A stretch of 6,858 nucleotides of DNA from Candidatus Iainarchaeum sp. (GCA_003559395.1 PWLL01000032.1:1-6858), one strand, 5' to 3'; counted from the stretch's first letter, positions 1-6,858 are shown. The notes: a model not told the origin generated them from the sequence alone. Translations and numbers: made by a program.

Positions 1-335
1 ATAGTTTCTTTAAATCGTCCAACAATTCGAACATCTTCTTCTTGAACATCTTTTCCTATAATCGTAATTGTTGGATTTACAAAGTCTATCTTTGATTTAT
101 TATCTACATAAAACCTTATTTCTTTTGTTAAGGAGTTAATACTAACGTTTTTTAAAAGAAATTCTGCATCCATACAATCTATAGCACTAGAAGTTCTTCT
201 AGTTTCTCTTTCTGCATCTCCTAAAAAATCTAAGGTTATTTCGCTTCCCCAACTAAGATAAATCCCCACCAATATAGATGCGACTAACACTAACAAAACA
301 ATTCCTATTATCGGCGATATTCCTTTTTTGCTCAT
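1..335 (-). CDS. Archaeal type IV pilin-like protein (class III signal peptide, Pilin_N/DUF1628-type N-terminus). The 5' end is complete and the 3' end runs off the window.
   Basis: This ORF is not in the supplied track because it is truncated by the window edge. My translation from the ATG at 335-333 (minus strand) is MSKKGISPIIGIVLLVLVASILVGIYLSWGSEITLDFLGDAERETRRTSSAIDCMDAEFLLKNVSINSLTKEIRFYVDNKSKIDFVNPTITIIGKDVQEEDVRIVGRFKET... It has 111 codons with no stop. A short basic leader (KKG) followed by ISPIIG and about 20 hydrophobic residues is the canonical archaeal prepilin/prearchaellin processing motif, with predicted cleavage after G5. There is no Glu at +5, so it is not bacterial type IVa or Flp-like. 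It lies 13 nt downstream of the DUF192 gene on the same strand. Confidence 0.8.
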   Translation of the reverse strand, partial: MSKKGISPIIGIVLLVLVASILVGIYLSWGSEITLDFLGDAERETRRTSSAIDCMDAEFLLKNVSINSLTKEIRFYVDNKSKIDFVNPTITIIGKDVQEEDVRIVGRFKET

Positions 336-348
336 ATTTCTTCTTATT

Positions 349-699
349 TTAAAACCACTCAATCACATCTTTTGTTTCTATAGAATCTATTTTTATTTTG
401 TTTGACAACTCAATAACATATCTTGCTTTTTTCTTTGGAGTATACATACAAAATGGTTTAAAGTTTTTTTTAATATCTACAATTTCTTTTTCTGCATTCA
501 AAAACAAAACATTTATTTTAATAAATACAAAAAACATATGTAGGGTTGCTCTTTCTTTACTTTCTGTTTTTAGATCAAATATCAACCCATAGTCAATATC
601 TTTAAACCTAAACATTAGTCCAAGTCCTCTTTTTAAAAAATTATCTGCTATTTTCTTTTTTTCAACAATAGTTTTGTTTTTAGTTTTATTAACAATCAT
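349..699 (-). CDS. DUF192 (COG1430) family protein of unknown function
   Basis: ATG at 699, TAA at 349-351, 116 aa. The sequence matches the DUF192 pattern by eye: KIADNFLKRGLGLMFR, then GLIF, then LHMFFVFIKINVLFLN(AEKEIVDI), then KPF, then ARYVIEL, then I(ETKDVIEW). This corresponds to the conserved A-x-t-x(3)-r-x-rGLM, hM-x-f-x(2)-piDvvFld, Pw, yvLEl and Gd-x-v blocks. No N-terminal signal peptide or TM segment is visible. Confidence 0.75.
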   Translation of the reverse strand: MIVNKTKNKTIVEKKKIADNFLKRGLGLMFRFKDIDYGLIFDLKTESKERATLHMFFVFIKINVLFLNAEKEIVDIKKNFKPFCMYTPKKKARYVIELSNKIKIDSIETKDVIEWF

Positions 700-702
700 A
701 TT

Positions 703-1827
703 TTATCTACTAATCCTATAATATATTATAAATTCTGTGTTTCTTTTTTCTATCTCAAAATCAAAAAAATGAATACTTTCTAAAATAATCGTATATTTTG
801 CACATTCTAGCCCACAAGCTTTTTCTTCTTCTTTTATAAAGTGGATCATCGTTGCGCCTGTTTCTTCCATAATCTCTCTAGAACTTATTGATTTTATTCC
901 AATTGTTCTTTCTATAGTTAGGGTTTGATCTTCAATATCTTTAAGATACGCTACTCCATCAACAAGTATTTCTGTGGCGTCTGGTTTTGGTGTAAAGGTT
1001 TGAAACAATATCACTGTTATTATGAAAAATATTGTTGCGTATTTAAAAAAATACAAGGGTTTTCTTTGTTTTATAACACACATAACAAATGATGTAAACA
1101 ACGACAACAACAAAGAGATATATAACAAAAAGTTATTAATAAACAGTCTTGTGATTGATTCTGCTGTATAGAACCACAAAAACTGTCTAGATATTATAAA
1201 GTCAATATACAATAACATAAAAACAAACACAAAATAAAAGATAATAGACAAAAGGAAAAGATTTTCAAAATATTTCTCTGTACTTTTTTCTGATTTAAAT
1301 ATGCTTGTATCTTTTGATAGGTTTATTAGTATTCTATCATATGAGACAGAGGTGTTTTTTAGGACATCTAACAAAGATAAACAATGATCAATAATCTTAC
1401 TTTGAATATTTTCGTTCATTGCTTTTAAAGAGTCTTCAAGGGTTTCTCCCCATGAGACTTTGTTGGCTAGTTTTTTTATGTCTCTGTTAATACTTCCATA
1501 AAAGTTTGATTCTGATAAATTTGTTAAAGCAACACCAATGTTGTTTGTTTTTTTATATTCTCTTCCAAGGTCTGCTAAAAAATAACTAAACTCACTTTCG
1601 ATTGTTTTTTTCTTATCATTCTTTATTAAGTATTCAATAATAAATCCAAGACTTCCAACAACTAAACCAAAGAAAAACAAAAAATAGTAAATATTGCTTT
1701 GATAAAACAAATTATTTGCTATAGCTATAATTAACAAACCAGATAGGATTCCTGAAAACTCAAGAATCTGATATTCGTTTTTGTAAAAAAACAAATCTAT
1801 TTTTTTATATGTTTTTTTTGGTTTCAT
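703..1827 (-). CDS. Type IV pilus platform membrane protein with a single T2SSF-like domain (TadC/FlaJ-half-like) and an extra ~96-aa C-terminal soluble domain
   Basis: ATG at 1827, TAA at 703-705, 374 aa. By eye it has two N-terminal TM segments (ILEFSGILSGLLIIAIANNLF and YYFLFFFGLVVGSLGFIIEYLI). A ~115-aa helical soluble block follows, whose pattern resembles the T2SSF/GspF repeat (IESEFSYFLADLGREYKKTNNIGVALTNLSE...INRDIKKLANKVSWGETLEDSLKAMNEN...). Three hydrophobic segments come next, then a non-hydrophobic C-terminal tail (nt 706..993) containing CGLEC. It sits directly after the other platform-like gene and the ATPase homolog. The family assignment rests on pattern and context only. Confidence 0.6.
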   Translation of the reverse strand: MKPKKTYKKIDLFFYKNEYQILEFSGILSGLLIIAIANNLFYQSNIYYFLFFFGLVVGSLGFIIEYLIKNDKKKTIESEFSYFLADLGREYKKTNNIGVALTNLSESNFYGSINRDIKKLANKVSWGETLEDSLKAMNENIQSKIIDHCLSLLDVLKNTSVSYDRILINLSKDTSIFKSEKSTEKYFENLFLLSIIFYFVFVFMLLYIDFIISRQFLWFYTAESITRLFINNFLLYISLLLSLFTSFVMCVIKQRKPLYFFKYATIFFIITVILFQTFTPKPDATEILVDGVAYLKDIEDQTLTIERTIGIKSISSREIMEETGATMIHFIKEEEKACGLECAKYTIILESIHFFDFEIEKRNTEFIIYYRISR

Positions 1828-1835
1828 ATTCGTTT

Positions 1836-2675
1836 CTATTTATTTAATATTATAATTAACAAAACTTCCAACACAGGAAACAAAACAGCAATCACCATTA
1901 AGATTTGCCCAATCAACACTCCTTCTGACGCTATAAAAAACAAGCCTGACAATAGAAAAAAAACTATTAAAAACAAGAACATATTTACTTGAAAAAGAAT
2001 GTTTGTTTTTGCTTTTCTTTGTTCTTTTTCTTCTCTTATTGTTTGTTCTATATTTTCTAAAAATTCATCTAATATTTTTTGTAGGCTTTCTTTTTTGTCT
2101 ATAACGTCTATTAGTTTTCTGAAAAACTCGTTTTCTATTTCTGAGTATGTGCTTTTCCTCACATAATCTAAAGTGCTTCTTAGATTCTTGTTAAGGTCTG
2201 CCATTGACAAAACTCTTTTTGATTCTTTTGTTAAAAGGTCGTTAAAATCAAATTTCTGTAAGATCAACAAAACATCTTTAACAGTCATGTTTGGATCTTT
2301 CAAAACTTGTAGATGTTTTATGCTTTTTTGTATTTCTTGTTCTATTTTTTTTCTTTTGGCTATTATTGCATAGGTTGGATATTTATAGAACATTAAAAAA
2401 AACAAAGTTGTAAAGGTTAAAGATATAAAGATAGTTACTAAGAAACTAATTAGATCAAAATATATATTTACAAAAATTAATAAGAAGATTATTAAAAACT
2501 CAAACATAACAAAGAAAATAAACGACATTAACAAAGAGTTGGATAGATATGTGACTACGTCTTGATTGATTCCTGAGTTTTTTATTGATCTTTTTAGTCC
2601 TGATAACTTTGGTTCAAATAGCTTTACTATATCTCTAAAGAAAAACAATGCTATTTTTGTAAATATTTTATTCAT
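1836..2675 (-). CDS. Type IV pilus platform membrane protein with a single T2SSF-like domain (TadB/FlaJ-half-like)
   Basis: ATG at 2675, TAG at 1836-1838, 279 aa. The N-terminus (LKRSIKNSGINQDVVTYLSNSLLMS) resembles the FlaJ/TadB N-terminal L-x(2)-AGI-x(4)-Y motif. It is followed by 2 TM segments, a ~120-aa charged helical block (AKRKKIEQEIQKSIKHLQVL...TLDYVRKST...FFRKLIDVIDKKESLQKILDEF) and 2 C-terminal TM segments. Its start codon overlaps the ATPase-homolog stop by 8 nt (ATGAATAA). Confidence 0.6.
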   Translation of the reverse strand: MNKIFTKIALFFFRDIVKLFEPKLSGLKRSIKNSGINQDVVTYLSNSLLMSFIFFVMFEFLIIFLLIFVNIYFDLISFLVTIFISLTFTTLFFLMFYKYPTYAIIAKRKKIEQEIQKSIKHLQVLKDPNMTVKDVLLILQKFDFNDLLTKESKRVLSMADLNKNLRSTLDYVRKSTYSEIENEFFRKLIDVIDKKESLQKILDEFLENIEQTIREEKEQRKAKTNILFQVNMFLFLIVFFLLSGLFFIASEGVLIGQILMVIAVLFPVLEVLLIIILNK

Positions 2676-5202
2676 TCTGATCTATGTTTAGTTTTTTAAG
2701 AAGTTTTTTAGGATCTTTTTGATAGTCATCTACTATGTTGTTAAAGTCTCTATAATCGTCTATGTCTGTTTTTTGCATCCAATAAAGAACTTCTTTTTTG
2801 TTTTTATAGTCTACTATGTCTATATTTGAGGATAGTAGATTTATTCTAAATCCTAGATTATCTTCGTTTAGTTTAAGGATATTATATTCTTTTCCTTTCA
2901 CATATTCGTTTATTTCTTCTATTTGTATTTGTTCTTGTTTTCCAAGATTTATTCTTTTTAGATTTATGACAATTGTTTTTTGTCCTATTAGTTTCATTTT
3001 TTCTATAATTGAGGAGAATATCTTCAAATCTGCTGTTAAAAGATTAATATTATACCATGTTGATTCAAAAAACTCTTCTATAAAGTTATCCACAATAATG
3101 TAGTCTGGTTTTTCTGCTATACTTTGATCAAGAATAGTTTTTAGTTCTATTTCACTTGTTCTATCTGATTTTCTTCTAATCCATTTTTTTTGTGGAAGTT
3201 TTAGGTTGTCGTGTGTTTGTATTGTTATTATTTCTTTATCTGGATATAATAAGGAAATTCCATTTAACATAATAGATTTGTCACAGTTTCCAGTTATGAT
3301 TATATGGTAGTCTTTTGCTATTGCTGACCAAATATAAGAGTAAATATCAATGGTACCTATTCCTAAGTTTACTAGAGAGATAGGACACAAAGGTTTATCT
3401 AAAAATTTCTTAATAACAAATGAAGAGCCTTTACTGCTTATATCTCCAACAGAATAAAGTCCTTCTAATTTATATCCATTAGGAAGGTATCCATCAATTA
3501 CTGGATGGTTTGAATTTATATAAAGCCCCATAGTTTTTGTTAAACCAAGCACAAACACATTTAACTTTGGCACATCTTCAAAAAACAAGTTTGTTTCTAT
3601 CATTCCGTATTTAATATGATATACGTTTATTGGTGTTCCTGCGCCCATACAGTTTACTTCTATTATGTTTTCATCTCTTAGTACGTTTGCTAAAAACCCA
3701 AGCCCAGTAAAGTCATTTTCTATAAACAAAAGATAGAGTTTTTTGTCTAGTGATGAGATTGGTGAAGAGATCTTATCTATTGATAGGTCATATATTTTAG
3801 AGATGTAGTTTTTAATTTCTTGCGAATCTCCTTTAAATGAGAAAAAGTTTTGATCAATGGAATCTAGAAAGATTTCTTTTATTTCTTGGTATATTTTGTC
3901 TTGTTCTGGTGTTAGTTTTGGTTGAACAATATTATAGAATAATCTATTTTCTTTATATGAGATTGTTACAAACGTAAAATCATTAATACTGTATTTATCA
4001 TAAACATTTGTTAGATCTTTTTTTCTCTTAGCCACATCGATAGTATAAACTAGATGTCCTATATCTTGTTGTTCTTTGTTTCTATCTGAGATAAAGGTTG
4101 TGGTTCTCATTGTTCTTGGTGTTTCTGTTTTGTTTTTTGTATTATCATCTATTGGTCTTACATATTCAAAAGTATCCTCTTTTGGTTCTTTTTCTTTTAC
4201 ATCTTTTATTTTTGGTTGTTCTTTTGGTTGTTCAACAACAATCGTTTTTTGTTCTATATTTCTTGGTTTTTCATCAATTTTTTTTATATTTTCTTTTACG
4301 TATGGATTAACATCCACTCCTTTTCCTGTATCTACCATAACTGGAATCGGTTCTTCTTTTTCTTCGGATTTTTGTTCTTGACTTAAAAAGTCTTCATCTT
4401 CATAGTTTATTAAGTTAGTATAATCTTTAAGAGAAATAATATCAGGCACATCAATTTCTTCAATAATTCCTAAGGTTTTTTTATTATCTAGTTTTTTAGT
4501 TTTATTATCTAGTTTTTTATTTTTATTTTCTTGTTTCTTATCATCTTTTGAAAAGGAATCTATTTTTGAGTAGAGGTTTTGTATTTTATAGTTTTTTAGT
4601 TTTATTCTTTTTACAGTTGGTTCATCTTCTAAAAAAGAAAAGGTTTCTATTGCTGGTTCTGTATCTTTGGATATTTGGTCTGTTCTTTCTGAAAGCTCGT
4701 CCAGCATATCGTCTATAGTGTTTAGTTTTGGTGATTTATTTTCTTCTGTTGTTGGTTTTAGAGTTTGTGTTTTTGGTTCTTTTTTTCTTAAACTTTCTGA
4801 AAGCTTTGGTTCTTTTTTCTTCAAAGTTTTTTTAAAAGATTTTTCGGTTTTTGGTTTTGTTTCAGGGTCTTTTTTTCTAAAACTTTCTGAAGGCTTTGGT
4901 TCTTTTTTCTTCAAAGTTTTTTTAAAAGATTTTTCGGTTTTTGGTTTTGTTTCAGGTTCTTTTTTTCTAAAACTTTCTGAAGGCTTTTTTTCTGAGTCTA
5001 TTTTTTTTAAAGGCTTTAACTTTTTTAAAGAATAGTTTTTTGGCACATATTTTTCTAATGGTTTTTCTTTATATTCAACATTTATTTTTTCTAGTCTTCT
5101 GTTCTTGTTTTTTGGCACATTGACATCTAAACTAGTCTCATGACTGTTTGATTCTTTTTTTTCTGAAAACTTTGTTAGTTTTTTTAGAACCATCTTTTTC
5201 AA
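2668..5202 (-). CDS. FlaI/PilB/GspE-family (T2SSE) secretion-ATPase homolog with degenerate catalytic motifs and a ~370-aa low-complexity repeat-bearing N-terminal extension. It is a probable pseudo-ATPase.
   Basis: 844-codon open frame in very AT-rich DNA, which is highly non-random. The track start at 5202 is a TTG (plus-strand caa at 5200-5202). The first ATG is 3 codons later at 5193 (MVLKKL...). Residues ~380-630 match the archaeal FlaI-type N-domain and linker well by eye: YNIVQPKLTPEQ (Y-x-V-EP-x-L), IIEVNCMGAGTPINVYHIKYGMIETNLFFED, LNVFVLGLTKTMGLYINSNHPVIDGYLPNGYKLEG, SSKGSSFVIKKF and PISLVNLGIGT. The C-terminal domain aligns to the ATPase core (IIITG..., KLPQKKWI, KPDYIIV...), but its motifs are degenerate (see findings). 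Stop TAA at 2668-2670. Confidence 0.85.
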   Translation of the reverse strand: MKKMVLKKLTKFSEKKESNSHETSLDVNVPKNKNRRLEKINVEYKEKPLEKYVPKNYSLKKLKPLKKIDSEKKPSESFRKKEPETKPKTEKSFKKTLKKKEPKPSESFRKKDPETKPKTEKSFKKTLKKKEPKLSESLRKKEPKTQTLKPTTEENKSPKLNTIDDMLDELSERTDQISKDTEPAIETFSFLEDEPTVKRIKLKNYKIQNLYSKIDSFSKDDKKQENKNKKLDNKTKKLDNKKTLGIIEEIDVPDIISLKDYTNLINYEDEDFLSQEQKSEEKEEPIPVMVDTGKGVDVNPYVKENIKKIDEKPRNIEQKTIVVEQPKEQPKIKDVKEKEPKEDTFEYVRPIDDNTKNKTETPRTMRTTTFISDRNKEQQDIGHLVYTIDVAKRKKDLTNVYDKYSINDFTFVTISYKENRLFYNIVQPKLTPEQDKIYQEIKEIFLDSIDQNFFSFKGDSQEIKNYISKIYDLSIDKISSPISSLDKKLYLLFIENDFTGLGFLANVLRDENIIEVNCMGAGTPINVYHIKYGMIETNLFFEDVPKLNVFVLGLTKTMGLYINSNHPVIDGYLPNGYKLEGLYSVGDISSKGSSFVIKKFLDKPLCPISLVNLGIGTIDIYSYIWSAIAKDYHIIITGNCDKSIMLNGISLLYPDKEIITIQTHDNLKLPQKKWIRRKSDRTSEIELKTILDQSIAEKPDYIIVDNFIEEFFESTWYNINLLTADLKIFSSIIEKMKLIGQKTIVINLKRINLGKQEQIQIEEINEYVKGKEYNILKLNEDNLGFRINLLSSNIDIVDYKNKKEVLYWMQKTDIDDYRDFNNIVDDYQKDPKKLLKKLNIDQNE
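4479..4527. repeat. Short tandem 21-bp repeat (~2.3 copies) in frame in the same N-terminal extension
   Basis: Positions 4479-4498 equal 4500-4519 at an offset of 21. There is a mismatch at 4499/4520, and the match then continues to about 4527. It encodes NKKLDNKTKKLDNKKT (a KKLDNK[TK] heptad). Confidence 0.8.
4775..4988. repeat. Tandem 90-bp direct repeat, ~2.4 copies, in frame inside the ATPase-homolog N-terminal extension
   Basis: Period 90 nt. The string aactttctga recurs at 4791, 4881 and 4971. Positions 4811-4860 are identical to 4901-4950 (50/50), and flanking positions differ by only a few substitutions. It encodes PSESFRKKEPETKPKTEKSFKKTLKKKEPK, then PSESFRKKDPETKPKTEKSFKKTLKKKEPK, then a partial LSESLRKKEPK. 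Confidence 0.95.
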
Positions 5203-5302: not shown

Positions 5303-6037
5303 TTACAAAAAACTAACAATTCCATAGTTTGCTAGTATTCCAAAAAATAAAAACAAAGCAACAATTACATATGAAACAAACAAAGCAACAATAAAAGGAA
5401 TTAACGGAGAGGCCCATAGTTCAGAAATATTGTTTTTTCTAGCTAAAGATTTTATGTATCTTAGTTGTGCTTTTGGTGAACAGTTTGGTTCTAGTTGTAC
5501 TTCTTTGACTAATTTTTTGTTTTTGTATTTTAGTATTTCTAGAGGCGTATAAAAGTCAGTTATTTTTTCTAAAGGCATTTTGGTTCCTAAAAACATCATG
5601 ATTGTATTTTTTAAAAAACCATGTTCTGGTTTTTGTTTTTTAATAAGATTATATATAAAAAATGATAAAGGAATAATAAGCATAATAAACAAAGCTAGCA
5701 AGAACACAAGCTGGGAAAAAGCATACAAAAAACCACTAGTAAATGAGATTAACAAAACAACTAATAAATCTCCTTCTCCGATATACGCAAAAGAAGTCAT
5801 TTTTCCAAAAACATAAATGATTGTTAAAAAGATGATCGTGATTATTATTTGTGAAAAATATTGTGTCCACAAGAAACAATTGTTTCTAAACACAAACAAA
5901 TAAAGATAAACAACAGATAATAAACAAACAACAATTATTGGTATTATATTTATTTCTCTATATTTTATATCTTGATAAACATAATAAAAAACTAATATAA
6001 AACAAACAATAAACAATGGTAATACGCGCAATAACAT
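5303..6037 (-). CDS. Prepilin/preflagellin peptidase, aspartic peptidase family A24 (PibD/FlaK/EppA-like)
   Basis: The track ORF is 5303..6094, but its first codon is TTG (plus-strand caa at 6092-6094). The ATG at 6037 gives MLLRVLPLFIVCFILVFYYVYQDIKYREI..., the typical family architecture of a first TM helix followed by the first catalytic Asp (D at nt 5969-5971 in YQDIKYREI). The second catalytic Asp lies in a GxGD-type motif, IGEGDLLV (D at nt 5768-5770). The protein is polytopic, with a ~75-aa soluble insertion before the last TM segment. Stop TAA at 5303-5305. Start is either 6037 (preferred) or 6094. Confidence 0.8.
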   Translation of the reverse strand: MLLRVLPLFIVCFILVFYYVYQDIKYREINIIPIIVVCLLSVVYLYLFVFRNNCFLWTQYFSQIIITIIFLTIIYVFGKMTSFAYIGEGDLLVVLLISFTSGFLYAFSQLVFLLALFIMLIIPLSFFIYNLIKKQKPEHGFLKNTIMMFLGTKMPLEKITDFYTPLEILKYKNKKLVKEVQLEPNCSPKAQLRYIKSLARKNNISELWASPLIPFIVALFVSYVIVALFLFFGILANYGIVSFL

Positions 6038-6094
6038 GATTTTCTCTTTTTTATTTATAAAAAAACGATTTCTTATTAATTTATGATAAACCAA

Positions 6095-6178: not shown

Positions 6179-6858
6179 ATGGTAAAAATAACTTCAATTG
6201 GATTTATTCTTGATGGAAATAGAAGATATGGTGTTAAAAAAAAAATCACTTATAAAGAAGCTTATTCTTTAGGTGCAAAAAAAGCAAGAACAGTTATTGA
6301 ACACATATACAAGAAACACAAAAAAATAAAACAAATACATCTTTTTACTTTATCTAAAGAAAATCTAGAAAATAGAAGTAAATTAGAGTTAAATGAGTTA
6401 TTTAATTTATTTAAAGAAAATAAAAAATATTTAGATGGTCTTAGTAAAAATATAAGCATTAAGTTTATTGGTAATTTTTCTAAGTTGCCTAGTGATTTTA
6501 AAAAAGAAGTTATTAAAACTAATAACTCTTCTACTAAAAAAAGATTAACGATTTATTTTTGTTTAGGTTATGGTGGCCGACAAGAAATTGTTGATGCTGT
6601 AAACAAAATTAATAACAAAAATATTAAAACAAAGATAACAGAAAAAACTTTTAAAAAATATTTGTACGATAAAGACATCATTGATCCAGAGGTAATTGTT
6701 AGAACCTCAGGCACAAAAAGATTGTCTGGGTTTATGTTATATCACGCAGCTTATTCTGAGCTTTGTTTTTTAAATAAATTGTGGCCAGAGATAACTATTA
6801 AAGATGTTGATAAAATCATTTATGATTTTAAATATGTTAGTAAAAACTTTGGTGCTTA
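6179..6858 (+). CDS. uppS: Isoprenyl (undecaprenyl/dehydrodolichyl-type) diphosphate synthase, cis-prenyltransferase family. The 3' end runs off the window and is probably within a few codons of the stop.
   Basis: This ORF is not in the track because it has no stop in the window. My translation from the ATG at 6179 is MVKITSIGFILDGNRRYGVKKKITYKEAYSLGAKKARTVIEH...LFTLSKENLENRS...IYFCLGYGGRQEIVDAV...VIVRTSGTKRLSGFMLYHAAYSELCFLNKLWPEITIKD...YVSKNFGA. It matches the cis-IPTase signature blocks DGNRR[WY], [FL]S-x-EN-x-x-R, GYGGR-x-EI, [IV]RT[SG]G-x-x-R-x-S-x-F and Y-x-E-x-x-F-x(4)-WP. There is no in-frame stop over 226 codons. Confidence 0.9.
   Translation, partial: MVKITSIGFILDGNRRYGVKKKITYKEAYSLGAKKARTVIEHIYKKHKKIKQIHLFTLSKENLENRSKLELNELFNLFKENKKYLDGLSKNISIKFIGNFSKLPSDFKKEVIKTNNSSTKKRLTIYFCLGYGGRQEIVDAVNKINNKNIKTKITEKTFKKYLYDKDIIDPEVIVRTSGTKRLSGFMLYHAAYSELCFLNKLWPEITIKDVDKIIYDFKYVSKNFGA

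What the first reader, a model, noticed from the sequence alone, without database searches (positions are those of the whole stretch)
3082..3297. The only secretion-ATPase homolog in the pilus operon has lost all four catalytic motifs (probable pseudo-ATPase)
Seen directly: no GK[ST] occurs anywhere in the 844-aa protein. The only GK dipeptides are GKG, GKE and GKQ.

Comparison with the usual archaeal T2SSE motifs:
- Walker A. Archaeal FlaI-type proteins have (I/L)xGETxSGKTT(L)LNA. This protein has IIITGNCDKSIMLNGI (nt 3274-3297). The loop is about 2 residues shorter and Asp replaces the Gly that precedes the Lys.
- Asp box. The I-E-D-x-x-E equivalent is ITIQTHDNL (nt 3202-3228).
- Walker B. 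The equivalent is KPDYIIVDNFIEE (nt 3082-3105) instead of PDYIIVGE(V/I)RG-x-E, so the catalytic Glu is replaced (GE to DN).
- His box. No histidine exists anywhere downstream of this point, so there is no His box.

The N-terminal FlaI-type domain and the inter-domain linker are well conserved, and the frame is intact. This argues for a maintained, non-catalytic paralog rather than a decaying pseudogene.

Type IV filament assembly is normally driven by ATP hydrolysis in this hexameric protein. An operon whose sole motor homolog looks inactive therefore needs explaining. It may borrow an active ATPase encoded elsewhere, form hetero-hexamers, or use the protein as a scaffold or regulator.
Basis: partly seen in the sequence, partly recalled or inferred. 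Interest (0 to 1): 0.85.

Follow-up and report, generated by a model that had tools for sequence, protein, structure and literature searches.

The report
Conserved dead ATPase in archaeal pilus operon
The pilus-type gene cluster of this tiny DPANN archaeon (phylum Iainarchaeota/Diapherotrites) encodes a motor-protein look-alike that keeps the motor's fold but has lost every ATP-handling motif. Natural selection has preserved it in that state across the lineage, so it is most likely a non-catalytic part of the machine, and a normal ATPase encoded elsewhere in the genome could supply the energy.

Summary
The 844-aa protein (nt 2668-5202, minus strand) is a FlaI/GspE-type secretion-ATPase homologue by sequence (PDB 2OAP E=6e-37) and by predicted fold (Foldseek TM 0.71). 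It lacks Walker A, Asp box, Walker B, His box and the two conserved N-domain arginines.

It is neither a pseudogene nor an assembly error.
- About 32 orthologues (38-73% identical) from Iainarchaeota MAGs, including the complete Ca. Forterrea genome, share the same degenerate pattern.
- That pattern has its own invariant residues: G638, D641, Q662, D665, D705.
- All 18 fetched genes are intact.
- dN/dS is 0.04-0.25, also across the former active site.

Synteny is conserved: A24 prepilin peptidase, pseudo-ATPase, two TadB/C-like platform proteins, DUF192, then pilin-like genes.

"Only ATPase homologue" holds for the operon but not for the genome. A canonical ferredoxin-fused TadA/CpaF-type ATPase with its own two platform genes lies 67 nt downstream of the locus in one MAG and about 12 kb downstream in Forterrea.

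Best reading: a selectively maintained pseudo-ATPase that acts as a scaffold or adaptor, with energy supplied in trans. Loss of catalysis is inferred from sequence and was not assayed. I found no description of this in the literature searched. I class it as a new variant of a known kind, interest about 0.6.

The parts
2668..5202 (-). Pseudo-ATPase gene: 844 aa from the TTG listed by the ORF finder. The true start is probably the ATG at residue 4 (nt 5193), judged from the family consensus MVELKKL.
   Evidence: ORF list. NCBIfam FlaI NF058587 E=3.7e-35 but 121.7 bits against a cut-off of 550. No Pfam hit. PDB 2oap 6e-37 and 4ii7 5.5e-25. Family alignment.
4063..5202 (-). N-terminal extension (residues 1-380), rich in Lys, Glu and Pro (22% K) and mostly predicted disordered. 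It carries four short motifs conserved across the family: about 163-215 PFIExxSFLxDxPK...NLYSKID, 246-262 IEEIxIPxIxSLxDD, 290-310, and 345-352 FDYILPxD.
   Evidence: Composition. pLDDT below 50 for 1-160, 231-282 and 312-381. Conserved motifs in alignment A1.
4754..4987 (-). 90-nt tandem repeat, 2.6 copies at 93% identity, inside the N-terminal extension. It encodes the repeated KKEPKxSESFRKKxPETKPKTEKSFKKTLKK unit.
   Evidence: TRF. The Forterrea orthologue has a different repeat, 45 nt x 5.7 copies, in the same region.
3373..4062 (-). FlaI/GspE-type N-terminal domain (residues 381-610). It is well conserved: 15 of the 23 columns that are at least 90% conserved in canonical relatives are kept.
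   Evidence: (pLDDT about 85-90).
3409..3471 (-). Positions of the two arginines invariant in canonical relatives (LPDGSR and FTIRKF). Here they are K578 (nt 3469-3471) and K598 (nt 3409-3411), and Lys is found in 94% of the family.
2671..3372 (-). C-terminal RecA-like domain (residues 611-844). The fold is kept but shortened, and all catalytic motifs are lost.
   Evidence: pLDDT 82-95. Foldseek hit to 2oap over 482 columns, TM 0.71. Only 10 of the 37 columns conserved in canonical relatives are kept.
3274..3297 (-). Walker A remnant ITGNCDKS (residues 636-643). The loop is 2-3 residues shorter than the P-loop. G638 and D641 are conserved; the Lys is not.
3202..3228 (-). Asp-box remnant ITIQTHDNL (residues 659-667). 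Canonical SIEDTxE has become [ST][IV]Q[STP][HYF]D. Q662 and D665 are invariant in the family.
3085..3108 (-). Walker B remnant PDYIIVDN (residues 699-706). The canonical Gly is replaced by D705, which is invariant or nearly so. The catalytic Glu position is variable (N/E/K/D/T/Q/H/Y/V).
3028..3045 (-). Site where the His box (GHxxxxTxHA) of canonical relatives would lie. It is deleted or replaced (NLLTAD), and there is no His after H664.
5303..6094 (-). A24 (FlaK/PibD-type) prepilin peptidase with both catalytic aspartates present: D42, and D109 in the GEGD motif.
   Evidence: Pfam Arc_PepC_II 3.7e-8. NCBIfam FlaK 3.5e-11. Motifs. Syntenic in 15 or more loci.
1836..2675 (-). Platform protein a (279 aa, T2SSF/TadB-C/FlaJ-like). 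Its ATG overlaps the pseudo-ATPase stop codon by 8 nt.
   Evidence: Pfam T2SSF 2.2e-8. Gene junction sequence. Synteny.
703..1827 (-). Platform protein b (374 aa, weak T2SSF/FlaJ similarity).
   Evidence: Pfam T2SSF 0.013 and NCBIfam ArlJ 2.2e-6. Its orthologue in L028 hits T2SSF. Synteny.
349..699 (-). DUF192 protein (116 aa), a constant member of the locus.
   Evidence: Pfam DUF192 1.5e-12. Synteny.
1..347 (-). 5' part of a pilin-like gene with a class III signal peptide (MSKKG/ISPIIGIVLLVLVASILVG...). It runs off the window.
   Evidence: Translation. Weak Arch_flagellin hit, 5.8e-4. The orthologue in L001 is a 389-aa pilin-like protein with a LamG domain.

Best explanation
The 844-aa protein belongs to a small family specific to one lineage, the DPANN phylum Iainarchaeota/Diapherotrites. 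The family descends from archaeal FlaI/GspE-type type IV filament ATPases.

It keeps the two-domain fold and the C-terminal helices. It has lost every element that binds or hydrolyses ATP: the P-loop, Asp box, Walker B Glu, His box and both N-domain arginines. In their place it has fixed a new, conserved set of residues (D641, Q662, D665, D705, K578, K598).

It therefore cannot be the motor. I think it most likely works as a non-catalytic cytoplasmic ring or adaptor. This would dock on the two co-translated TadB/C-like platform proteins of its operon, possibly through the conserved short motifs in its long disordered N-terminal extension. The energy for filament assembly would come from a separate canonical ATPase in the same genome. 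That ATPase is the ferredoxin-fused TadA/CpaF-type enzyme, which has its own two platform genes.

Shown: homology, loss of motifs, purifying selection, retained fold (by prediction), conserved synteny, and co-occurrence with a canonical ATPase.

Inferred: lack of ATP binding or hydrolysis, ring formation, docking on the platform proteins, and energy supply in trans.
For: - Homology and fold: PDB 2oap 6e-37 and FlaI 5.5e-25. AF2 pLDDT about 85-93 for residues 381-844. Foldseek 2oap E=1.8e-30, TM 0.71 over 482 columns, followed by FlaI, CpaF, VirB11 and PilT.
- Motif loss across 32 family members against 19 canonical relatives.
- Discrete family: about 17 representatives at 50% clustering with E<1e-119, then a gap to E about 1e-49 among 1.84 billion representatives.
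- Purifying selection: 18 of 18 ORFs intact. NG86 dN/dS is 0.04-0.25 overall and 0.0-0.22 for residues 611-720.
- Synteny of peptidase, pseudo-ATPase, two T2SSF genes, DUF192 and pilin in about 16 genomes. It also holds in a 29%-identical distant orthologue.
- An 8-nt overlap with the first platform gene.
- An apparently active peptidase.
- A canonical Fer4-T2SSE ATPase with GNTGSGKTT, VEEVREI, VIGEIRNKDE and TFHSQS lies 67 nt after DUF192 in L007.
- The same module lies about 12 kb downstream on the same strand in Ca. Forterrea.
- This canonical module is widespread in Iainarchaeota.
Against: - No biochemical data. Lack of ATP binding is inferred from motif loss only.
- The canonical ATPase has its own pair of platform genes, so it may serve a separate machine rather than this one.
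- Apart from L007, no canonical ATPase lay within +/-10 kb of the fetched loci. Forterrea's lies about 12 kb from the pseudo-ATPase gene, just beyond the fetched flank. Presence elsewhere could be checked only for Forterrea.
- One lineage (L002/L003/L010) keeps the peptidase, pseudo-ATPase and DUF192 but has lost both platform genes and the pilin at the locus. The protein's role therefore may not depend on its cis-encoded platform.
- Hexamer formation was not modelled.
Confidence: 0.6

Rival explanations
1. The pseudo-ATPase has been repurposed for a role that does not depend on its own operon's platform proteins or pilins. It might act as a regulator or brake of the canonical TadA-type machine. 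Or it might be a membrane-proximal hub whose Lys-rich disordered N-terminus binds nucleic acid, acidic lipids or partner proteins.
For: - The L002/L003/L010 lineage retains an intact pseudo-ATPase found on 24 contigs, with dN/dS 0.10 against L019. It nonetheless lost both T2SSF genes and the pilin at the locus.
- The N-terminal extension is long, variable in length (proteins range from about 760 to about 1230 aa) and repeat-bearing. It still carries conserved short motifs.
Against: - In about 14 other loci the gene is tightly packed with the platform genes, and in the window it overlaps the first of them.
- No nucleic-acid-binding or other domain was detected in the extension.
- The platform genes of the L002 lineage could simply lie elsewhere in the genome, which was not checked.
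Confidence: 0.2
2. The protein forms mixed hexamers with an active paralogue, acting as a non-catalytic spacer subunit in the motor ring.
For: The fold and many N-domain core residues are retained, and an active T2SSE-family ATPase is present in the same genomes.
Against: - The only co-resident canonical ATPase identified belongs to a different subfamily (TadA/CpaF-like with a ferredoxin domain). It is only about 21-25% identical over about 210 residues.
- No FlaI/GspE-type active paralogue was seen near any locus.
Confidence: 0.08
3. The protein still binds, and slowly hydrolyses, a nucleotide through a non-canonical site and is the real, if unusual, motor of the operon.
For: The RecA-like core strands and helices around the former site are predicted with high confidence. 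The region is under purifying selection.
Against: - All phosphate- and Mg-binding elements are missing. The P-loop is shortened by 2-3 residues and its Lys is not conserved.
- Two acidic residues (D641, D705) are fixed where the canonical relatives have the P-loop and the Walker B glycine.
- Both Arg are replaced and the His box is deleted.
Confidence: 0.07
4. It is a decaying pseudogene, or the degenerate motifs are sequencing or assembly errors.
For: The gene contains tandem repeats, which are known to cause local assembly errors. A 'secretion-related ATPase' with repeats was mis-assembled in the Forterrea drafts (PMC5905446).
Against: - The repeats lie in the N-terminal extension, not in the motif region.
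- The same motif state is seen in more than 30 independent assemblies.
- All ORFs are intact and dN/dS is far below 1.
Confidence: 0.01

Closest known systems
Archaeal secretion ATPase GspE of Archaeoglobus fulgidus (PDB 2OAP) and the archaellum ATPase FlaI/ArlI (PDB 4II7, 4IHQ)
   Same: - Best sequence matches (6e-37 and 5.5e-25) and best fold matches (TM 0.71 and about 0.6).
- Same two-domain layout and same C-terminal helices.
- Same gene neighbourhood type: polytopic T2SSF/FlaJ-like platform protein, A24 peptidase and class III signal-peptide proteins.
   Different: - No Walker A, Asp box, Walker B Glu or His box, and both conserved Arg are replaced.
- The C-domain is shorter.
- There is an added N-terminal extension of about 380 aa, mostly disordered.
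- It scores below the Pfam T2SSE and NCBIfam FlaI thresholds.
Ferredoxin-fused TadA/CpaF-type ATPase of Iainarchaeota (for example L007 10080-11870; P0303 of Ca. Forterrea)
   Same: Same superfamily (PF00437). It is encoded in the same genomes, next to or near the locus, and is also followed by two TadB/C-like genes.
   Different: - All catalytic motifs are intact.
- It has an N-terminal 4Fe-4S domain.
- It is only about 21-25% identical to the pseudo-ATPase over about 210 residues.
- It belongs to a different subfamily.
ArlH/FlaH of the archaellum (KaiC/RecA-like accessory protein). From my own knowledge, not tested here.
   Same: It is a precedent for an ATPase-fold protein in an archaeal type IV filament machine whose role is regulatory or structural rather than motor.
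   Different: - It belongs to a different family (KaiC-like).
- It retains Walker A and binds ATP.
- It accompanies an active FlaI in the same operon.
TadZ/CpaE of bacterial Tad pili (atypical ParA/MinD-like protein). From my own knowledge, not tested here.
   Same: It is a nucleotide-binding-fold protein with deviant motifs that acts as a localisation or scaffold factor for a pilus machine.
   Different: The fold subfamily is unrelated. It is not derived from the motor ATPase itself.
Other partly degenerate relatives seen here (P0100, P0114, P0074, P0127)
   Same: They are relatives from the same exhaustive search (27-32% identical to the window protein, E about 1e-31 to 1e-35) with altered motifs. 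Both Arg are lost in P0100 and P0114. The Asp box reads EKKRE or EKNHE, Walker B reads ITED or VGD, and the P-loop of P0074 reads GTGRTS.
   Different: P0100 and P0114 still have GK[ST]. None of the four shares the family's specific D641/Q662/D665/D705 pattern. Their gene neighbourhoods were not examined.

Membership tests
T2SSE / FlaI-GspE-PilB secretion ATPase family (Pfam PF00437; NCBIfam NF058587 FlaI) | Profile match above the curated threshold | tested here: not met
   No Pfam-A hit at E<=1. NCBIfam FlaI scores 121.7 bits against a cut-off of 550 and covers only model positions 3-357 of 527.
T2SSE / FlaI-GspE-PilB secretion ATPase family | Two-domain fold: N-terminal PAS-like domain plus C-terminal RecA-like domain | tested here: met
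   AF2 model pLDDT about 85-93 over residues 381-844. Foldseek 2oap E=1.8e-30, TM 0.71 over 482 aligned columns. The model is a prediction from a 21-sequence alignment.
T2SSE / FlaI-GspE-PilB secretion ATPase family | Walker A P-loop GxxGxGK[ST] | tested here: not met
   GNC--DKSI aligns to GETASGKTT. There is no GK[ST] in the protein. The motif is absent from all 32 family members, and the Lys is not conserved.
T2SSE / FlaI-GspE-PilB secretion ATPase family | Asp box (SIEDTxE) | tested here: not met
   IQTHDNL in the window. The family consensus is [ST][IV]Q[STP][HYF]D.
T2SSE / FlaI-GspE-PilB secretion ATPase family | Walker B with catalytic Glu (hhhhGE) | tested here: not met
   YIIVDN in the window. 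G is replaced by D705 in 97% of the family, and the Glu position is variable.
T2SSE / FlaI-GspE-PilB secretion ATPase family | His box (GHxxxxTxHA) | tested here: not met
   The segment is deleted or replaced, and there is no His after residue 664.
T2SSE / FlaI-GspE-PilB secretion ATPase family | ATP hydrolysis and hexamer formation | not testable with these tools
   Needs purified protein (ATPase assay, SEC-MALS or cryo-EM) or multimer modelling.
Archaeal type IV pilus-like (type IV filament) locus | A24-family prepilin peptidase with both catalytic Asp | tested here: met
   Pfam Arc_PepC_II and NCBIfam FlaK hits. D42 and G106-E-G-D109 are present.
Archaeal type IV pilus-like (type IV filament) locus | Polytopic T2SSF/FlaJ/TadB-C platform protein(s) | tested here: met
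   The 279-aa protein hits T2SSF at 2.2e-8, above the cut-off. The 374-aa protein hits weakly (0.013), but its L028 orthologue hits T2SSF.
Archaeal type IV pilus-like (type IV filament) locus | Substrate proteins with class III signal peptides | tested here: met
   Window nt 1-347 (minus strand) encodes MSKKGISPIIGIVLLVLVAS.... Orthologous pilin-like genes follow DUF192 in L001, L009, L016 and L017. The Pfam support is weak (Arch_flagellin 5.8e-4).
Archaeal type IV pilus-like (type IV filament) locus | An active assembly ATPase encoded in the locus | tested here: not met
   The only homologue in the locus is the pseudo-ATPase. A canonical ATPase is adjacent only in L007.

The most novel reading that the evidence does not exclude
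A type IV filament machine in which the motor-derived ring has become a permanently nucleotide-free structural part. The fixed acidic residues (D641, D705) and the Arg-to-Lys changes (K578, K598) may mimic a nucleotide-bound closed state. This dead ring would couple its own platform and pilin set to a physically separate Fer4-TadA motor. Alternatively, it would allow filament or adhesin display without any dedicated ATPase. Either case would be a new architectural principle for type IV filament systems and possibly an adaptation of host-dependent DPANN cells.
Probability: 0.2. Interest if true: 0.8.

Novelty: new variant of a known kind. Interest (0 to 1): 0.6.

Why it matters
As far as I know, type IV filament machines (pili, archaella, type II secretion) are taken to need an active hexameric ATPase on the platform protein. 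Here a whole archaeal lineage has kept, for a long evolutionary time, an operon whose ATPase homologue is dead yet under strong selection. That gives a natural experiment on what the ring does apart from hydrolysis, such as scaffolding, gating or partner recruitment.

It also bears on how ultra-small, host-dependent DPANN archaea build the surface structures thought to mediate contact with other cells.

There is a practical consequence. The protein gets no Pfam domain and is named 'hypothetical', 'FlaI' or 'VirB11' in databases. Genome surveys may therefore either miss the locus or wrongly count it as an active pilus motor.

Tried and rejected
- Pfam scan of the 844-aa protein gave no hit at all. 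Homology had to come from NCBIfam, PDB and fold search.
- Exact look-up of the window protein in the contig collection found nothing on record, so the wider context came from orthologues.
- Look-ups of the canonical ATPases P0181 and P0172, meant to match assemblies with pseudo-ATPase genomes, returned only unrelated short metagenome contigs. Co-occurrence was instead shown through L007 and the L026/L017 overlap.
- A search with the distant orthologue P0050 found no further members of its branch. It is a singleton, and the other hits are canonical ATPases.
- Among the top 150 relatives, other proteins lacking G..GK[ST] turned out to be fragments or intein-interrupted P-loops (GKC followed by an intein). 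These are not further pseudo-ATPases.
- Literature searches found no description of this family. The searches were: type IV pili + archaea + 'inactivated ATPase'; Diapherotrites + pili + ATPase; DPANN + type IV pil + Walker A; and pseudo-ATPase + pilus. Makarova et al. 2016 (PMC4858521) mentions neither DPANN nor inactive ATPases.
- There are no tRNA or Rfam hits in the window.
- Rejected: pseudogene or assembly artefact.
- Rejected: a mis-aligned hidden P-loop.
- Judged unlikely: hetero-hexamers with the Fer4-TadA ATPase, because the two are only about 21-25% identical and belong to different subfamilies.
- I could not inspect the model's coordinates, so the idea that D641/D705 pair with K578/K598 remains untested.


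Full report
**What is in the window.** The 6858-nt window is about 25% G+C. It carries a tightly packed set of genes, all on the minus strand:

| Position (nt) | Product |
|---|---|
| 5303-6094 | A24/FlaK-type prepilin peptidase |
| 2668-5202 | the 844-aa protein of the finding |
| 1836-2675 | 279-aa T2SSF protein |
| 703-1827 | 374-aa weakly T2SSF/FlaJ-like protein |
| 349-699 | DUF192 protein |
| 1-347 | start of a pilin-like protein, MSKKG/ISPIIGIVLLVLVAS... (class III signal peptide) |

- The peptidase has both catalytic aspartates, D42 and the D of GEGD.
- The stop codon of the 844-aa gene overlaps the ATG of the first platform gene by 8 nt.
- On the plus strand, from about nt 6179, a UPP synthase gene runs off the window.
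- "Pilus operon" is therefore a fair description.

**Checking the observation.**
- No GK[ST] occurs. The only GK tripeptides are GKG, GKQ and GKE, and the last histidine is H664.
  - GETASGKTT aligns to GNC--DKSI, two residues shorter.
  - IEDTREI aligns to IQTHDNL.
  - PDYIIVGE aligns to PDYIIVDN.
  - Detectable similarity ends right after Walker B.
- The coordinates are right to within a few codons.
- Pfam gives no hit at all. NCBIfam's FlaI model gives 121.7 bits against a cut-off of 550 and covers only the first two thirds of the model.

**It is a family, not an accident.**
- A word-indexed search found 24 relatives of about 800 aa, 45-73% identical, none with a Pfam domain.
- An exhaustive HMMER scan of 1.84 billion cluster representatives found about 17 family representatives (E<1e-119). 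There is then a sharp gap to canonical archaeal ATPases at E about 1e-49 and 29-33% identity. Most of those canonical hits match only up to Walker B.
- I aligned 32 family members with the 19 nearest canonical relatives:

| Element | 19 canonical relatives | 32 family members |
|---|---|---|
| Walker A | G[GA]TA[TS]GKT[TS] | TGx(x)Dx, 2-3 residues shorter |
| Asp box | SIEDTxE | [ST][IV]Q[STP][HYF]D |
| Walker B | RPDYxxVGE[VI]RGxEA | RPDYxI[LV]DxF |
| His box | GHxxxxTxHA | deleted |
| First conserved Arg | LPDGSR | Lys at 578 |
| Second conserved Arg | FTIRKF | Lys at 598 |

- The Lys of the window's 'DKS' is not conserved (K/T/M/S/A/N), so it is not a vestigial P-loop lysine.
- The family has its own conserved residues at the old site. 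G638, D641, Q662, D665 and D705 are invariant among the first 21 sequences. Q662 stays invariant, and D641 and D705 stay at 88-97%, across all 32.
- Of the columns at least 90% conserved in canonical relatives, 15 of 23 survive in the N-domain. Only 9 of 26 and 1 of 11 survive in the two halves of the C-domain.

**Maintained by selection.**
- All 18 genes recovered from independent assemblies are intact ORFs.
- Nei-Gojobori dN/dS for the closer pairs is 0.04-0.25 overall. For residues 611-720, the former active site, it is 0.0-0.22, no higher than in the N-domain.
- This rules out a decaying pseudogene and sequencing error.

**The fold is kept.**
- AlphaFold2 with the 21-sequence family alignment gives pLDDT of about 85-93 for residues 381-844. 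Most of residues 1-380 fall below 50.
- Foldseek against the PDB ranks 2OAP first (E=1.8e-30, TM 0.71 over 482 columns). FlaI, CpaF/TadA, VirB11 and PilT/PilB follow.
- The C-domain is a trimmed RecA-like core that has also lost a loop between the Asp box and Walker B and two segments after Walker B.
- The N-terminal 380 residues are Lys/Glu/Pro-rich and contain a 90-nt tandem repeat. They differ greatly in length among orthologues, whose total length runs from about 760 to about 1230 aa.
- Even so, the extension carries four short conserved motifs. That suggests partner-binding peptides within a flexible tether.

**Whose genome and what neighbourhood.**
- A scan of GTDB species representatives found 16 loci. 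All are in DPANN archaea labelled Ca. Iainarchaeum, Diapherotrites or 'archaeon', and they include the complete 839,632-bp genome of Ca. Forterrea multitransposorum.
- The order peptidase, pseudo-ATPase, T2SSF-a, T2SSF-b, DUF192 is conserved in nearly all. Pilin-like genes with class III signal peptides follow DUF192 in L001, L009, L016 and L017.
- A 29%-identical protein, P0050, is also degenerate (FKKDNRKCDELLNA, SIESKPEL, GFIVLDYLNKE). It sits in the same arrangement: UPP synthase, peptidase, the degenerate protein, then two T2SSF genes. The dead state is therefore probably old. P0050 has no close relatives in the database.
- One lineage (L002/L003/L010, including an 813-kb contig) keeps the peptidase, an intact pseudo-ATPase and DUF192. 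It has lost both platform genes and the pilin at the locus.

**Is it the only motor homologue?** In the operon it is; in the genome it is not.
- In L007 a 596-aa protein starts 67 nt after DUF192. It has an N-terminal 4Fe-4S domain and a canonical T2SSE domain with GNTGSGKTT, VEEVREI, VIGEIRNKDE and TFHSQS. Two TadB/C-like genes and a DedA-like gene follow it.
- This second module is widespread in Iainarchaeota and has a constant layout.
- For Forterrea, the JGI contig that carries the canonical ATPase (L026) overlaps the CP045477.1 segment that carries the pseudo-ATPase (L017) at 100% identity over 3834 bp. That places the canonical gene about 12 kb downstream on the same strand. The contig-length match of 839,632 bp agrees.
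- Apart from L007, no canonical ATPase lies within +/-10 kb of the fetched loci. Whole-genome content could not be checked for them.

**Mechanism.**
- With no P-loop, no Mg-coordinating or catalytic acidic residues in place, no His box and no arginines, the protein almost certainly neither binds nor hydrolyses ATP. This is inferred, not measured.
- It retains the fold. Its gene is packed against the platform genes in the syntenic loci and overlaps the first of them in the window. It has also gained a conserved-motif-bearing tether.
- I therefore think it most likely forms a static cytoplasmic ring or adaptor on the platform proteins, with the co-resident Fer4-TadA ATPase supplying the energy (confidence about 0.6 for the package; about 0.9 for 'dead but maintained').
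- The lineage that lost its cis platform genes yet keeps the protein leaves room for a repurposed role, either regulatory or as a hub (about 0.2).
- Mixed hexamers are unlikely, because the only active paralogue seen belongs to another subfamily (about 21-25% identity).
- The fixed Asp residues, together with the Arg-to-Lys changes, might mimic a nucleotide-bound state. I could not test this without the model's coordinates.

**Comparison with what is known.**
- The protein works like, and descends from, FlaI/GspE-type ATPases. It fails five of that family's defining features (profile threshold and four motifs), so I do not file it as a member in the functional sense.
- Non-motor ATPase-fold accessories exist in related machines, such as ArlH/FlaH and TadZ/CpaE. 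This is from my own knowledge; both come from other families.
- I found no description of a catalytically dead PilB/FlaI/GspE homologue conserved as the locus ATPase.
- Probst and Banfield 2018 (PMC5905446) mention a repeat-containing 'secretion-related ATPase' in Forterrea only as an assembly problem. The Forterrea orthologue does carry a 45-nt x 5.7 repeat, so it may be the same gene.

**Verdict.** I class it as a new variant of a known kind, of moderate to high interest (0.6). It is limited by the lack of any biochemical or cellular data for these uncultivated organisms.

Noticed in passing
window 4754-4987 (minus-strand gene); L017 9934-10191: The N-terminal extension of the pseudo-ATPase carries lineage-specific tandem repeats: 90 nt x 2.6 copies in the window and 45 nt x 5.7 copies in Ca. 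Forterrea. Its length varies widely among orthologues. The Forterrea paper (PMC5905446, Fig. 1F legend) reports repeats that caused scaffolding errors in a 'secretion-related ATPase', possibly this gene.
   Followed up: partly
L002/L003/L010 (for example L002 9190-12924): One lineage, including an 813-kb contig, has the peptidase, an intact pseudo-ATPase and DUF192. Both T2SSF platform genes and the pilin gene are cleanly missing, with only 72 nt between the pseudo-ATPase and DUF192. The pseudo-ATPase is still under purifying selection (dN/dS 0.10 against L019).
   Followed up: partly
window 349-699 (minus strand); all syntenic loci: A DUF192 (COG1430) protein of unknown function is a constant member of the locus. 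It stays next to the pseudo-ATPase even where the platform genes are lost, which suggests a functional link to this system.
   Followed up: no
L007 10080-14113; L020, L024, L026: A second conserved module is widespread in Iainarchaeota: a ferredoxin (4Fe-4S)-fused TadA/CpaF-type ATPase, two TadB/C-like proteins and a DedA/VTT-domain protein. The Fe-S domain on a pilus-type ATPase is itself unusual and hints at redox control.
   Followed up: partly
proteins P0100, P0114, P0074, P0127: Other archaeal FlaI/GspE-like proteins show partial motif decay. Both Arg are lost in P0100 and P0114. The Asp box reads EKKRE or EKNHE, Walker B reads ITED or VGD, and the P-loop of P0074 reads GTGRTS. Loss of catalytic motifs may therefore have happened more than once in this superfamily.
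   Followed up: no
proteins P0088, P0130, P0147, P0162, P0039: Several canonical relatives have an intein inserted right after the P-loop lysine (GKC...). On a simple motif scan this mimics a missing Walker A.
   Followed up: partly
window 6179-6858 (plus strand): A UPP synthase (cis-prenyltransferase) gene is divergently placed next to the peptidase. The same neighbour is present in L001 and in the distant L028 locus, so the adjacency is old.
   Followed up: partly
window 5193-5202: The ORF finder starts the pseudo-ATPase at a TTG (nt 5202). The family consensus N-terminus MVELKKL suggests that the ATG three codons downstream (nt 5193) is the real start.
   Followed up: no
L001 14723-22308: Downstream of DUF192 in the closest long relative are large surface-type proteins. 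The first two have pilin-like N-termini: a 389-aa protein with a LamG domain and a 486-aa protein with Big_12 repeats. A 1571-aa Big_12 protein follows. These are candidate adhesive tip or filament subunits.
   Followed up: partly
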